From contig OZ024740.1 in assembly GCA_964016885.1 (NCBI GenBank), forward strand, positions 272,986,001 through 273,050,000: DNA of 64,000 nt. The letters are read 5' to 3'. This DNA comes from Eledone cirrhosa (Eukaryota). Position numbers and translations under genes: made by a program. Positions 24,150-34,870 of the stretch are shown here, one piece after another. The notes beneath the pieces are model-generated. The model had not been told where the DNA came from, made no database searches, and saw only the letters and a list, made by a program, of their open reading frames with translations. Each line of letters starts with the position of its first letter. The stretch's first letter is position 1.

Positions 24150-24335
24150 TATTAGTAAAAGGAAAAGAAAATGCTGACAAATTTTTCCCAGTGAAAAATA
24201 GTTTAATTAGGAATAAGAAAAAACTAGTAATAAGTATTGGTTAGTATTCAGTTTTAGTTTTAAGTTTTTACCGGTTGCGCATTTCTAATGCTTTTCAAAA
24301 ATAATTTTGAGGTAGAGCGCCCGTGATGTTTGCTC
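24150..24335 (-). mobile_element. PLE-end fragment with UUGAAAA/GCAA HHR-like motif (24266-24301)
   Basis: Homologous to 34668-34870 on the plus strand. Confidence 0.6.
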
Positions 24336-24567
24336 TCTATATATATACACATACATATATATACATAAGTATGAATATATATATATATGTATGTGTGTGT
24401 GTCTGTGTATATATTTTTGTGAGTGTGTATGTGTGAGTATGTGTGAGTATGTGTGAGTATGTGTTTGGGGTCGATAATATAAATTACATACCCAAGGTTG
24501 TTGGATTGGCGAAATTGCTAGTGTGTTGGCTAGATACTTTGTTATATTTGTTCTGGCTTTTTGCATT

Positions 24568-24643
24568 GAGAGGTCGATAAAATAAAGTACCAGTAATACA
24601 CTGCGATAATTGCTGGCCTTGTGCCAAAAGTAGAAACAATTAT
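24568..24643 (+). mobile_element. SINE family A 3' fragment
   Basis: ggtcgataaaataaagtaccag...gtagaaacaattat. Confidence 0.75.
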
Positions 24644-25146
24644 ACAAATATATATACTACTGGGGTAGAAGTTCCCTCTACATCTCTTTCTCAGTTCCTT
24701 TCTCTTATTCTGTACTCTTCTCTGGAAGAAATCTGCTGTATTCAGACATGAAGAAGAGATTGGCCCAGTTAGATTTAAAAAATGCCCTAAAAGTGGTGTC
24801 TGTCAATGTGATCCGCTTCTCGACTCTCCCATGATTTACAGGTCCATATATACCATGATTTACATACTCGTAGATATAAATATATGTCGAACAGCTGCGG
24901 CGATGACTATTGCATTTGCTCCAACTCAATGATTTAAAATGTATCTTTAACAACATTCTCAGACTGGGTTAGGGAACTCACCAGATATCACAAGATCTAA
25001 TGCCGTAGAATTGTATGGTAAACAATTTTTCTTGCGCCTGTACTATTTAAATATCATTCGTGATCTAATTTTATCGCTTTCCTTAAATGTTTTCTTAGTT
25101 CTCTAGCATTCCTATATCTTTCAAATATCCTATAATGTGTTAGCAT

Positions 25147-25345
25147 TTGGCAATATCGGTAGAGCGTCAGACACCATGCTTTTCGATATAGAGCTATGGC
25201 CCTTTACGTTCTGAGTTCAAATTCCGCCGAGGTTAACTTTATTTTTCATCCTTAGGGATCGATAAAATAAAGCACCAAGTAATGTACTAGGGTGATTGTT
25301 CTGGGGTAATTGTACTGGCCTTGTGCCAAAAGTGGAAACAATTAT
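25147..25345 (+). mobile_element. SINE family A copy
   Basis: Consensus match. Confidence 0.8.
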
Positions 25346-25574
25346 CTTGCGGAATTGGTTACAAGTGTCTCTTTAAAATCATATTCGCTGTTTTGTGTAT
25401 TGTAGAGGAAAGCTGAGGAGGCAAACTGGTTTCAACCCATAGTATATAATTCATCTTATGGTGTTAATCTATTGAAAAAAAGCTACGTTTTAATTTCCGA
25501 TTTTCTTTCTTATGAAATTGTGGGTCTCTTTACGTAAGCAATAGAAGTCAGTTAAGGTTTGTTTTATTGTAGAT

Positions 25575-25740
25575 TAATTGTTTCTACTTTTGGCACAAGG
25601 CCAGAAATTACCCAGTACATTACTGGTACTTTATTTTATCGACCGCCTAAGGACGAAAGGCAAAGATAACTTCGGCGGGATTTGAACTCAGTCCGTAAAG
25701 GGACGTAACTCTATGCTGGAAAATATGGCGTCCGACTCTT
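25575..25740 (-). mobile_element. SINE family A copy
   Basis: Consensus match, inverted relative to the 25147 copy. Confidence 0.8.
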
Positions 25741-30836: not shown

Positions 30837-31964
30837 ATATCTATCTATCTATCTATCTATCTATCTATCTATCTATCTATCTATCTATCTATCTATCTAT
30901 CTATCTATCTATCTATCTATCTATCTGTTTATCTCTCTACCTATTTGTCTGTCTCTCTATCTTTCTCTCTATCTTGTATATCTATCTATATATATATATT
31001 TATTTATATATTCTATTTATTTATTTATTTATTTATTTATACCCTTCTTTTCTTTTTATCTATGCCTTCATTTCTGCCTTCCACTTCTATTTGTTTACTT
31101 GCGAGAATTATATGTATATACGTGTATATGCGCATTTCTTTATATACGTGTATGTTTGAGCTTTACGTTTTTTCTAACCCTCTCTCTATTTCTCCCCCTC
31201 TCTCATTCCCCCTCTCTCTCTCTCTCTGTCTATCTATCTATCTCTCTCTCTCTCTCTCTGTAACATTGCACCTCCCCTATGGGTACGTATATGTATGTAT
31301 AGAATTTGTATATTTATATTTGTATATATATATATATAGTGTCTTACCCTTCACTCGTTTACTTTGTCATGTTGCTCATTTCCTTACGCTTTCTTCCTCT
31401 CTTTTATTGTTTTCACTCTCTCTCTCACACTCTCTCTCTCTCTCTCTCTCTCTCTCTCTCTCTCTCTCTCTCTCTCTCTCTCTCTCTCTCTATGTATATA
31501 TATATATATATATATATATATATACATATATATATATATATATACACATACATGCACACACACACACACATATATATATATATATATATAAATATACATA
31601 TATATCTATCTATCTATCTGTTTATCTATTTATCCATCTATCCATCTATTTGACTAACTAGCGGTTTGCCAATCTTTCGATGTATCTAGCTATTAATCTA
31701 TTTATCTGTCCATCCACCTCCTCAGCGGAAAAAAAAACATAACCAAACAGATTACAAGAAGTCAAAACATAACAATAATAAGAAAACAGACCCACAAAAA
31801 TTATGAAAGAAAACAAAAACAAAGGAACAACTTACAAATATAAAACTAGACAAAGGAAGAAAAGACAAGCCAAACGAAACTTCAAAAGGAGACAAAAATA
31901 TTTCAAGTCTTAGTAAAAATTTTTGGAACCTGATGATGTATTTTCTTCTTTGTGATTTCATTAC

Positions 31965-32890
31965 TAAGTGTATGTTTGTGTGTGTTTGTGTATATATGTG
32001 TCTATGTATGTGTGTATGTGAATGTGTGCGTGCGTGTGTATGTGTTTGTGTGCATATGTGTGTGCGTATGTGTGTGTGTGTGAATGTGTGTGCGTGCGTG
32101 CGTCTGTATGCGTTTGTGTGCATGTGTGTGTGCGTATGTGTGAATGTGTGTGCGTGCGTGCGTCTGCATGTGTTTGTGTGTATATGTGTGAGTGTGTGTG
32201 TGAATGTGTGTGCATGTGTGTGTGTGAATGTGTGTGCGTGCGTGCGTCTGCATGTGTTTGTGCGCATATGTGTGTGCGTATGTGTGAATGTGTGTGCGTG
32301 CGTGCGTCGGTATGTGTTTGTGTGCATATGTGTGTGCGTATTTGTGTGTATGGATGTATGTGCATGCGTGTGTATGTGTTTGTGTGTATATGTGTGTGTG
32401 CGTATGTGAGTGTGTGGATGTGGGTGCGTGCGTGTGTATGAGTGTGTGTGTATATGTGTGCGTGCATATGTGAGTGCGTGAATGTGGGTGCGTGCGTATG
32501 TATGTGTTCGTGTGCTTATGTGCATATGTGTGTGTGTATGTGTATTTGTGAATGTGGGTGCGGGCGTGTGTATGTGTTTGTGCGCATATGTATGTGCGTA
32601 TGTGTGTGTGTGTGGATGTGTGTGCATGCGTGTGTATGTGTTTGTGTGTATCTGTGTGTGCGGATGTGTGTGTGTGAATGTGGGTGCGGGCGTGCGTATG
32701 TGTTTGTGTGTATATGTGTGTGTGCGTATGTGTGTGTGTGAATTTTGGTGCGTGCGCGTGTATGTGTTTGTGTGTATAAGTGCGTGCGTATGTGTGCGTA
32801 CGTATATGTGTGTGTATATATATATGTGTGTGTGTGTGTGTGTGTGTGAATGTGTGTACTATAGTGCGTGCGTGTGTATATGTTTGTGTG
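31965..32890. repeat. TG-rich minisatellite with ~60-bp higher-order unit
   Basis: Recurrent gtgaatgtgtgtgcgtgcgtgcgtctg.atgtgtttgtgtgcatatg unit. Confidence 0.85.
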
Positions 32891-33690
32891 TAGTGAAAAT
32901 GACTGCAATGCTATGCAATGCAATGTTATTTAGCTAGGCCTGTTTATGACAGCAATTGTTCTTGGTGTAGATATAGAGCCTCCCCTAGCTTCCACAAACC
33001 ACCCCTAAAAATAAATCAAAGTAATAATAAACATCGATAACAAAATTTAAAATAAAACAACTGAAATAGTAATGACCGTAGTGATGGTAGTGTGGATAGT
33101 TAAGTATGAAAATAATATAAAAAAAAACCCAAGTAAAAACAAACAAAACATGTCGTTGTTATAGACATATAAGTCAATGAAAACATAATACTTTTCATCG
33201 CGAAGAATAAATTTTAGTAAATATTTAGGTGTCGGATTATCTGTCTTACACTGGCTTTTTGACAGACCAATGAATGTCAATAAACGGTTCTTTTCATCAA
33301 ATACTGACTGCATTCACATTCAAATTTTGTTATTGTTTTCTTTCGCTTTTTTCTATTTCTTTCTTTCTCCATTACTTTCTCTCAATCCCTCGTTATAATT
33401 GTGTGTATATATATTTATATATATATATGTATATAGGATTCTATATATATATATATGTGTATCTATATATATAGAGATAGATAGATAGATATGTATATAT
33501 ATATATATATATATGTGTGTGTGTGTATTATCTCTCTCCCCCCCCCCCCTCTCTCTCTCTATATATATGTGTGTGTGTATATTATCTCCCTCTCTCCCTC
33601 CCCCCTCTCGGTCTCTATATCCTTCTGCTTCTTCCCCACTGTCAACCTTTCATTCTTTCTCTCTCAGTTTTTATTTAACATCAATATAAA

Positions 33691-34280
33691 ATAATTGTTT
33701 CTACTATTGGCACAAGGCCAGCAATTATCTCAGTGCATTACTGGTACTTTATTTTATCGACCCCGTAAGGATGAAAGGCAAAGTTAACCTAGGCGGGATT
33801 TGAAATCAGGATGGCAAGGGCCGTAACTCTATGCGTCAAAGCATGGCGTCCGACCCTCTACCGATACTGCCAATTCTCTGCCCTCAATATAAAATAATTG
33901 TTTCTACTTTTGGCACAAGGCCAGCAATTATCTCAGTGCATTACTGGTACTTTATTTTATCGACCCCGTAAGGATGAAAGGCAAAGTTAACCTCGGCGGG
34001 ATTTGAACTCAGATCGTAAAGGGACGTAACTATGCTTGAAAGCATGGCGTCCGACCCTCTACTGATACTGCCAATTCAATGATTTCCAATCTAGATACAA
34101 GTGTTAAGTATTTTATGTAGGGGTAAGATGGTTATAGAGATTCAGTATTTAACTGGCACTTTATCTTCTTGATCTCGGAAGGATGAAAACAAAAGGTAAT
34201 CTCGGCGGTATTTGAACTCAGAATATAAATCATCAGAATTAAATTACGTCAAATATTTTAACCATCGCTCTAACGATTCA
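33691..34280 (-). mobile_element. Tandem SINE family A copies (33691-33885, 33893-34076, plus diverged 34080-34280)
   Basis: Two near-identical adjacent copies, each preceded by caatataaaataattg. Confidence 0.85.
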
Positions 34281-34667
34281 GTACCTCAGCACAATCTAGT
34301 GTATATATAAACTAATATGATAATAATATCTTTCCCTAGTTTTTATCTAGCTATCTCAAGATTTTGATTTGGGTTTGTGAACATGTGATAGTGTGTTCAA
34401 AGTTTGTATCTTATTGCATTGTGTGAAGATGTATTAAAAAATATTGTATAGTAGGATGTGGATAGATTTATTTCACAGAAGTCACATGATGAAATCCGAA
34501 AGGTTAAGATACTTTTTCCCATTATTTCAAGCGTTAAACTAATATATTTTTCATTGTTCTGTGTCGTTTACTTTGTTCTTTTTGTTCACTTTTTACGTAC
34601 ACACACAGACGCACGCACACACACTCAAACACACGTACACATACACACACACGTATATATATATAGA

Positions 34668-34870
34668 TCAGAGCAAACAGCAAGCACGGACACTCTATCT
34701 CAAAATTATTTTTGAAAAGCATTTAGAAATGCGCAACCGGTAAAAACTTAAAAACTTAAAACCACAACTGAATACTAACCCATACAATCACTAATACTCT
34801 TTTATTCCTAATTAAACCATTTTTCAACTGTGAACAATTTGTCAGCATTTTCTATTCCGTTTACCAATAT
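34668..34870 (+). mobile_element. PLE-end fragment with UUGAAAA/GCAA HHR-like motif (34709-34745)
   Basis: ttt-TTGAAAA-gcattt..aaatgc-GCAA-ccgg-TA-aaa. Ends in (TA)n. Confidence 0.6.

What the first reader, a model, noticed from the sequence alone, without database searches (positions are those of the whole stretch)
24266..34745. Double-variant HHR-like motif: UUGAAAA with GCAA in place of GAAA at two separate loci
Seen: copies at 24266-24301 (minus) and 34709-34745 (plus) diverge in their flanks, yet both have TTGAAAA-gcatt..aatgc-GCAA-ccgg-TA. A13 is normally highly conserved. Inference: either a new tolerated core (U3-A8 plus A13C) or a family that spread with a dead ribozyme.
Basis: partly seen in the sequence, partly recalled or inferred. 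Interest (0 to 1): 0.7.

Follow-up and report, generated by a model that had tools for sequence, protein, structure and literature searches.

The report
Penelope hammerhead with fixed C13 core
Both spots are short copies of a young jumping gene present more than ten thousand times in this animal genome, whose hammerhead self-cutting RNA motif carries a change at a normally fixed position in 99% of copies, so the RNA is likely a weakened cutter that the element probably does not need in order to spread.

Summary
The motif is real at both loci, but the flanks are not divergent. Both loci are ~190-200-nt copies (86% identical) of the terminal repeat of a Penelope-like retrotransposon (RT plus GIY-YIG) inserted in (TA)n. 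Genome-wide, 10,625 of 10,756 exact matches carry GCAA, and the non-C copies look like random decay. Three successive subfamilies all carry C13, and the youngest has many intact ORFs. Two related families (ORF2 56-57% identical) have the same U3-A8 core, covarying stems and the ACCGGU palindrome, but GAAA. So this is a true hammerhead descendant and C13 is derived. U3-A8 is published for Penelope elements; I found no natural A13C in the papers I could read (Lunse 2017 was not held). 5' ends of flank-anchored copies cluster about 70 nt upstream, and none lies at the cleavage site in any family, so inserted cDNA came from uncut RNA. The core and stems stayed unchanged while the flanks drifted (p 0.02-0.11). 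Best reading: an attenuated, dimer-dependent ribozyme that is dispensable for insertion. Cleavage is untested. The scan noted U3-A8 cores on other DNA before, but not C13.

The parts
34666..34868 (+). Solo terminal-repeat (pLTR) copy, youngest subfamily B, from the inferred RNA start to the 3' end; no ORF; flanked by (TA)n/(CA)n
   Evidence: (97-99% matches genome-wide)
34709..34745 (+). Type I hammerhead-like motif: stem I 34709-34711 / 34743-34745; U3-A9 34712-34718; stem II 34719-34732; G12 34733, C13 34734, A14 34735; palindrome ACCGGT 34736-34741; predicted cut after A17 (34742)
   Evidence: numbering by comparison with PMC4209133
34698..34715 (+). Predicted 6-bp hairpin that pairs an upstream TCAAAA with stem I 5' strand and U3-U4-G5-A6 (off-state fold)
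   Evidence: folding model only
34867..34949 (.). (TA)n microsatellite at the 3' end of copy B (likely target site)
24151..24336 (-). Solo pLTR copy, older subfamily A; no ORF
24266..24301 (-). Same hammerhead-like motif with a loop II one base shorter; U3 24298, C13 24277, A17 24269
24058..24152 (.). (TA)n microsatellite at the 3' end of copy A (likely target site)

Best explanation
The two loci are 5'-truncated terminal-repeat copies of a young Penelope-like retrotransposon family whose hammerhead has U3-A8 plus a family-wide A13C change, and this RNA is likely a weakened, dimer-dependent and possibly protein-assisted cutter that the element probably does not need for insertion. Shown: family identity, copy number, fixation of C13 through three subfamilies, intact RT/GIY-YIG ORFs, and copies whose 5' ends lie about 70 nt upstream of the cut site. 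Inferred: transcription starts about 73 nt upstream of the cut site; reverse transcription starts inside the RNA about 125-165 nt downstream of the hammerhead and runs through it uncut, which gives solo copies like these two; two RNAs (or tandem units) would pair through ACCGGU to form stem III; an upstream hairpin is predicted to hold the core off; C13 would cost roughly 10-100-fold in rate. The fold is probably still kept, for slow or regulated cleavage or as a protein-binding structure.
For: Element: tandem 4.73-kb units, hammerhead 193 nt before the first ORF1 Met; ORF2 784 aa with RVT_1 (E 4e-7) and GIY-YIG (E 2e-6); many open 784-aa frames among the 150 best-scored RT matches, 97-98% identical; inverted and tandem repeats, ~33-nt tail and (TA)n flanks. 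Ancestry: related families with GAAA, 12,337 (first 100 rows all GAAA) and 2,150 matches (first 100 rows all GAAA); 17 of 18 core and palindrome positions shared with both, although ORF2 is only 56-57% identical; compensatory changes in stem II (GCAG/CUGC versus GCAU/AUGC) and stem I (C-G versus U-A). Fixation: 10,625 of 10,756; oldest subfamily 94 C of the first 100 of 451 rows. Non-C copies are 51 T, 33 A and 16 G in the 100 listed of 131, so there is no amplified revertant. Uncut templates: 0 of 80 C13 copies, 0 of 30 and 0 of 26 A13-family copies end within 3 nt of the cut site, while 26 of 80 and 11 of 30 end at -75 to -62. This agrees with PMC11167929 (passages): hammerhead mutants did not affect insertion in vitro, and cleavage needed protein. 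Constraint after C13: 0 of 28 core/stem sites versus 23 of 159 flank sites differ between the oldest and youngest subfamily, p 0.018; the only changes are in loop II. Weakening: A13 mutations give 10-100-fold inhibition, less than most core positions (PMC4075628 citing an earlier study); G5 is paired upstream with P 0.96-0.99 in the three C13 subfamilies versus 0.03 and 0.11 in the two main A13 families; intermolecular ACCGGU pairing P 0.8-0.9.
Against: No cleavage data. The conservation signal falls to p 0.11 when clustered changes are merged into 13 events and is p 0.22 for subfamily A versus B. The oldest subfamily was found through a hammerhead pattern, so a decayed subfamily would be missed, and the 17 nt upstream of the core are equally invariant. 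The absence of 5' ends at the cut site holds for A13 families too, so it does not separate C13 from A13, and cut RNA may simply not be copied; inverted pairs are not independent events. The folding contrast is weak: stem I is also unlikely in the A13 families in long contexts (P 0.00-0.06), the GATGG family misfolds in the model, and one further A13 copy also shows the upstream hairpin (P 0.90). The 10-100-fold figure is second-hand, for a C3-G8 minimal ribozyme, and not specific to C.
Confidence: 0.5

Rival explanations
1. Dead ribozyme: A13C (with a three A-U stem I and the upstream hairpin) abolished cleavage recently, and the family spread anyway because cleavage is not needed; the core looks intact only because little time has passed.
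For: Subfamilies A and B differ at only about 6% of four-fold sites (9 of 137, 12 of 195), so zero changes in about 30 nt is not strongly unexpected (p 0.11-0.22). Templates were uncut. Stem I probability is about 0. Naiad elements are reported to proliferate without hammerheads (passages). Inverted pairs sharing T13 or G13 were inserted.
Against: All changes through three subfamilies fall in loop II, none in core or stems (p 0.018 per site). One loop change adds a stem II pair. A13 is among the more tolerant core positions.
Confidence: 0.25
2. Fully tolerated core: A13C is nearly neutral in a U3-A8 background. Recalled, not checked here: in the pre-catalytic fold position 13 pairs with position 8 (sheared G8-A13), so G8A may already remove what A13 contributes, and ORF protein or dimer context would supply the rest.
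For: C13 arose in a lineage that already had A8. The family is as abundant as its A13 relative (10,756 versus 12,337). No revertant lineage expanded. Core constraint continues.
Against: All U3-A8 relatives seen keep A13. The broad C13 search gave 11,600 matches whose first 100 rows were all of this family. No support in the papers read. The 8-13 pairing argument is from memory.
Confidence: 0.18
3. The block is kept at DNA level, as a downstream promoter element or protein-binding site, and the hammerhead fold is a relic.
For: It lies about +20 to +73 from the inferred start, downstream of CCAAT-, E-box- and E2F-like words (labels recalled). The 17 nt upstream of the core are also invariant.
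Against: Stems covary between families while the spacing differs (loop II 3-11 nt), which points to RNA structure.
Confidence: 0.07

Closest known systems
Minimal type I hammerheads of metazoan Penelope-like elements, U3-A8 variant of Schistosoma mansoni Cercyon elements (Cervera and De la Pena 2014, PMC4209133; parts 1-2 of 4 read, supplement part 1 of 3 plus passages)
   Same: Located in the terminal repeat of a PLE; UUGAAAA core; G10.1-C11.1 pair; palindromic helix III implying dimers; short helix I; solo and inverted copies; low activity expected.
   Different: C at position 13, fixed in more than 10,000 copies; no extra base between A9 and 10.1; GUA triplet; helix I of only three A-U pairs. 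The GAAA column is lost in the supplement's text, so I could not check it for variants.
Poseidon PAc element of Anolis (PMC11167929; passages read)
   Same: pLTR hammerhead, genomic tail, internal start of reverse transcription; hammerhead mutants did not affect insertion in vitro, and no RNA ends were found at the cut site.
   Different: PAc has a C3-G8 core and its ORF starts inside the hammerhead; here the core is doubly variant and ORF1 starts about 190 nt downstream.
Natural hammerhead core variants (Perreault et al. 2011, PMC3088659; section 8 and passages read)
   Same: U3-A8 covariation and other rare core changes (A6C, U13a insertion, U15.1-A16.1) occur in nature with reduced activity.
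   Different: No A13 substitution is named in the text read (figures not seen). Core mutants in repeats were discarded as hits in that study.
Neptune/Nematis-type endonuclease-bearing PLEs (Craig et al. 2021, bioRxiv 2021.04.23.441226; passages read)
   Same: RT, CX2-5CxxC linker and C-terminal GIY-YIG; tandem and inverted pLTRs; 30-40-nt tail; (TA)n targeting.
   Different: Described there as single-ORF; these three families have an upstream ORF1 overlapping ORF2 in the -1 frame at a conserved T TTT TTA heptamer.

Membership tests
Type I minimal hammerhead of PLEs | Core 3-9 with a Watson-Crick 3-8 pair | tested here: met
   U3-A8 form; published variant
Type I minimal hammerhead of PLEs | G12-A13-A14-A15.1 | tested here: not met
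   C13 in 10,625 of 10,756 matches; hence filed as a variant descended from this family, not as a consensus member
Type I minimal hammerhead of PLEs | Helix II closed by G10.1-C11.1 | tested here: met
   4-6 bp; P 0.8-0.98 in longer contexts; covaries between families
Type I minimal hammerhead of PLEs | Palindromic helix III allowing a dimer | tested here: met
   ACCGGU; intermolecular pairing P about 0.8-0.9 in the model
Type I minimal hammerhead of PLEs | NUH cleavage triplet | tested here: met
   GUA at 34740-34742 and 24271-24269
Type I minimal hammerhead of PLEs | Helix I closing the junction | tested here: inconclusive
   Three A-U pairs are possible and covary with the GCAG family, but predicted P is about 0 because of a competing hairpin
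Type I minimal hammerhead of PLEs | Extra nucleotide between A9 and 10.1 (usual in metazoan PLE motifs) | tested here: not met
   Absent here and in both A13 relatives
Type I minimal hammerhead of PLEs | Position in the pLTR of a PLE | tested here: met
   One motif per 4.73-kb tandem unit, between ORF2 and the next ORF1
Type I minimal hammerhead of PLEs | Site-specific self-cleavage | not testable with these tools
   No RNA run was listed; genomic 5' ends show no cluster at the site
Endonuclease-bearing PLE, Neptune-type | RT followed by C-terminal GIY-YIG | tested here: met
   Pfam PF00078 and PF01541 on the 784-aa frame
Endonuclease-bearing PLE, Neptune-type | CX2-5CxxC linker before the endonuclease | tested here: met
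   Cys-x4-Cys-x2-Cys visible in the translation; definition
Endonuclease-bearing PLE, Neptune-type | Tandem and inverted pLTRs, 30-40-nt tail, microsatellite targets | tested here: met
Endonuclease-bearing PLE, Neptune-type | Single ORF | tested here: not met
   ORF1 (436 aa from Met) overlaps ORF2 in the -1 frame; same layout in the GCAG family; same heptamer in phase with ORF2 in the GATGG family
Endonuclease-bearing PLE, Neptune-type | RT phylogeny places it in the Neptune clade | not tested
   The tree held no named reference elements

The most novel reading that the evidence does not exclude
A natural, catalytically working hammerhead with a doubly rewired core (U3-A8 plus C13), in which the G8A change makes A13 dispensable, held off by an upstream hairpin and switched on by dimerisation or by the element's own ORF1/ORF2 proteins; it has powered more than 10,000 insertions and is invisible to every GAAA-based search, implying a hidden class of core-variant hammerheads in animal genomes.
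Probability: 0.18. Interest if true: 0.7.

Novelty: new variant of a known kind. Interest (0 to 1): 0.42.

Why it matters
What the hammerhead does for Penelope-like elements is described as unclear in the passages read. This genome offers a natural comparison: three co-resident families with intact ORFs and the same hammerhead frame, one with C13 and two with A13, plus rare natural A13 copies inside the C13 family. If C13 cleaves, the accepted core consensus needs widening and descriptor searches miss such ribozymes. If it does not, a family of more than 10,000 copies shows in vivo that cleavage is dispensable while the fold is still kept. The U3-A8 part and the element type are ordinary.

Tried and rejected
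Rfam scan of the window at E <= 1: the 150 listed of 261 matches were microsatellite-driven miRNA hits (plus one viral cis-element model), all below their gathering scores; no hammerhead family was among those listed. Segmental duplication: rejected, homology ends at microsatellites and the loci belong to different subfamilies. Sporadic mutation in two copies: rejected. Idea that C13 itself creates an inhibitory G5-C13 pair or a second palindrome: not supported, P(G5-N13) <= 0.04 and natural A13 copies fold alike. Idea that the GCAG family is non-autonomous: rejected, it has 775-aa ORFs. Other C13 families with different stems: none among the first 100 of 11,600 rows; the remaining rows were not seen. 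Expression: no RNA holder listed. Contigs of 8 of 24 listed runs, labelled as other organisms, showed no other letter at position 13 where covered; the labels are coded and the source of this DNA in those runs is unknown, so I do not use this as evidence for spread across species. The careful RT tree did not finish; the quick tree (24 rows) leaves the order of the three families open, so 'related', not 'sister'. The -217 group (22 rows) is an artefact of a duplicated promoter block missing from my reference. Literature: 'hammerhead'+'A13C' gave 0 papers; the whole-word GCAA search gave nothing relevant in the listing; PMC11014351 and PMC6155905 have no 'A13' passage; PMC2837043 notes A13 altered in two individual satellite sequences; PMC9901934 passages gave no value for position 13 and its supplement was only listed. 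Not held: Lunse et al. on PLE hammerhead dimers, Przybilski and Hammann 2007, Martick and Scott 2006, and one further id; these and unseen figures or supplements may already show a position-13 variant.
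Full report
Observation. The motif occurs exactly twice in the window, at 24269-24298 (-) and 34712-34742 (+), against 0 in 100 shuffles. The claim of divergent flanks is wrong. The two loci align over a unit of about 190-200 nt (24151-24336 and 34666-34868) at about 86% identity and end in (TA)n on both sides. Rfam listed no hammerhead among the 150 best of 261 weak matches. The genome is 3.0 Gb and rich in microsatellites; a cephalopod host is my inference from a recalled SINE and from earlier notes, not a tool result.

The element. A genome search with locus B returned 28 matches, the best at 97-99%, many as head-to-head inverted pairs. Longer stretches show tandem 4.73-kb units: hammerhead, ORF1 (436 aa from its first Met, no Pfam match), then ORF2 of 784 aa with RVT_1 and GIY-YIG and a Cys-x4-Cys-x2-Cys linker. 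All 150 scored RT matches were 97-100% identical and many lie in open 784-aa frames, so the youngest subfamily is recent. Inverted 5' copies, a tail of about 33 nt and (TA)n flanks match the description of endonuclease-bearing Penelope-like elements (passages of Craig et al.). The window's two loci are solo, ORF-less copies.

Is GCAA the consensus? Yes. There are 10,756 exact matches with any base at position 13 and 131 with a non-C base, so 98.8% are C. The 100 listed non-C rows are 51 T, 33 A and 16 G (my count), as expected from decay; no revertant lineage has expanded. In copies found by a downstream flank, 67 of the 69 that reach position 13 have C (80 anchors). An older subfamily (loop AAGAA; 451 matches to the looser pattern, 94 C in the first 100 rows; ORF-bearing stretches about 86-93% identical to the youngest) also has C13. 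So C13 predates three successive subfamilies; locus A belongs to the middle one and locus B to the youngest.

Is it a hammerhead? By descent, yes. Two other autonomous families in the genome have the same UUGAAAA core, G10.1-C11.1 pair and ACCGGU palindrome, but GAAA: 12,337 matches and 2,150 matches, the first 100 rows of each all GAAA. Their ORF2 proteins are 56-57% identical to this family's and to each other, yet 17 of 18 core and palindrome positions are shared, and stems II and I differ by compensatory changes. A13 is therefore ancestral and C13 derived. U3-A8 is published for Schistosoma Cercyon elements, including the string UUGAAAA (PMC4209133), and for other natural hammerheads (PMC3088659). 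I found no natural A13C family, but Lunse et al. and several figures were not available.

Tolerated or dead? Three indirect tests. (a) 5' ends of flank-anchored copies. None of 80 C13 copies, 30 GCAG copies or 26 GATGG copies ends within 3 nt of the predicted cut; 26 of 80 and 11 of 30 end at -75 to -62. These are the first listed loci of chromosome C1 out of 7,126, 5,505 and 2,206 matches, and inverted pairs are not independent. Inserted cDNA thus came from uncut RNA that likely starts about 73 nt upstream, whatever the base at 13. This fits PMC11167929, where hammerhead mutants did not affect insertion in vitro and cleavage needed protein (passages). It does not show that C13 is dead. (b) Constraint after the change. 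Oldest versus youngest subfamily: 0 of 28 core and stem sites differ, against 23 of 159 flank sites (p 0.018), but p is 0.11 when clustered changes are merged (25 copies; one GCAG-like row dropped). Middle versus youngest: 0 of 31 against 11 of 136, p 0.22, with four-fold divergence about 6%. All hammerhead changes lie in loop II. This is suggestive, not decisive. (c) Folding. Stem II and the intermolecular palindrome form readily, but stem I has only three A-U pairs, and an upstream hairpin pairs G5 with P 0.96-0.99 in the three C13 subfamilies, against 0.03 and 0.11 in the two main A13 families and 0.90 in one further A13 copy. Natural A13 copies of the same subfamilies fold like C13 copies, so C13 acts, if at all, on the tertiary core. 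PMC4075628 (part 1 of 2 read) reports from an earlier study that A13 mutations inhibit 10-100-fold, less than most core positions.

Mechanism. Most likely (0.5) the element is transcribed from a promoter just upstream. The RNA carries near its 5' end a hammerhead that can cut only as a dimer, slowly, and perhaps with protein help; reverse transcription starts downstream of it and copies it uncut into (TA)n sites. Because insertion does not need cutting, a mild core defect could be fixed, while the fold is probably still kept. Rivals are a dead ribozyme (0.25), full tolerance through epistasis with A8 (0.18; the structural argument is recalled) and a DNA-level element (0.07).

Membership and novelty. 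It works like, and descends from, the minimal type I hammerheads of Penelope-like elements, but fails the A13 feature and cleavage is untested, so I file it as a new variant. Earlier notes of this scan found U3-A8 cores on other DNA, in this and other genomes, and judged them ordinary; none contains the word A13C, and no look-alike of this stretch was indexed. Interest 0.42: an ordinary element type and a known first variant, but a family-wide core change in more than 10,000 copies with built-in natural controls makes the role of these ribozymes directly testable.

Noticed in passing
L074:6597-6663; L266:3492-3579; L107:3536-3570: All three families have a T TTT TTA heptamer in the same phase at the start of ORF2; in the C13 and GCAG families ORF1 overlaps ORF2 in the -1 frame there. 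This is a likely programmed -1 frameshift; no strong downstream structure was predicted for the C13 family. Endonuclease-bearing PLEs are described as single-ORF in the passages read; one search found nothing further (listing only).
   Followed up: partly
L074:5356-6663: ORF1 of 436 aa has no Pfam match and is 44-53% identical over its N-terminal part to ORF1 of the GATGG family; a candidate RNA chaperone for the hammerhead (speculation).
   Followed up: partly
window 1343-1371 (-) and 1453-1481 (+): Inverted pair of consensus-core hammerhead motifs (CUGAGGA ... GAAA) inside an inverted repeat 1219-1371 / 1453-1604 at 85%; likely another PLE family's inverted ends.
   Followed up: no
window 37005-37029 (+): Consensus-core type I hammerhead motif with stem II GUCC/GGAC and a GUU triplet.
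   Followed up: no
window 55714-61879: Complex 99%-identical inverted and tandem structure with a weak RT match at 58859-59512 (26%, E 1e-6); likely a recent insertion of a different Penelope-like element.
   Followed up: no
window 20192-21232 and 22330-23366: Inverted repeat of 1.04 kb at 99% identity.
   Followed up: no
window 33681-34222, 42921-43084, 46288-46709, 47471-47675 and others: A dozen or more copies of a ~200-nt dispersed repeat, some in tandem; resembles an octopus SINE (label recalled). A fragment lies at 24572-24643 beside locus A.
   Followed up: no
L282 (G000:C1:83186382) and L116 (G000:C1:70649083): Further U3-A8 hammerheads with GAAA: one has GCAG-family flanks with a GCAU/AUGC stem II, the other a fourth stem II sequence.
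   Followed up: partly
L074:4940-5090; L112: The region upstream of the inferred RNA start has CCAAT-, E-box- and E2F-like words (labels recalled), and in many C13 copies the block is tandemly duplicated.
   Followed up: no
rows P0025, P0059, P0062, P0067, P0074, P0092, P0120: Relatives of ORF2 (42-47%) are named as proteins of mollusc gill symbiont bacteria; likely host transposon DNA in symbiont assemblies (inference).
   Followed up: no
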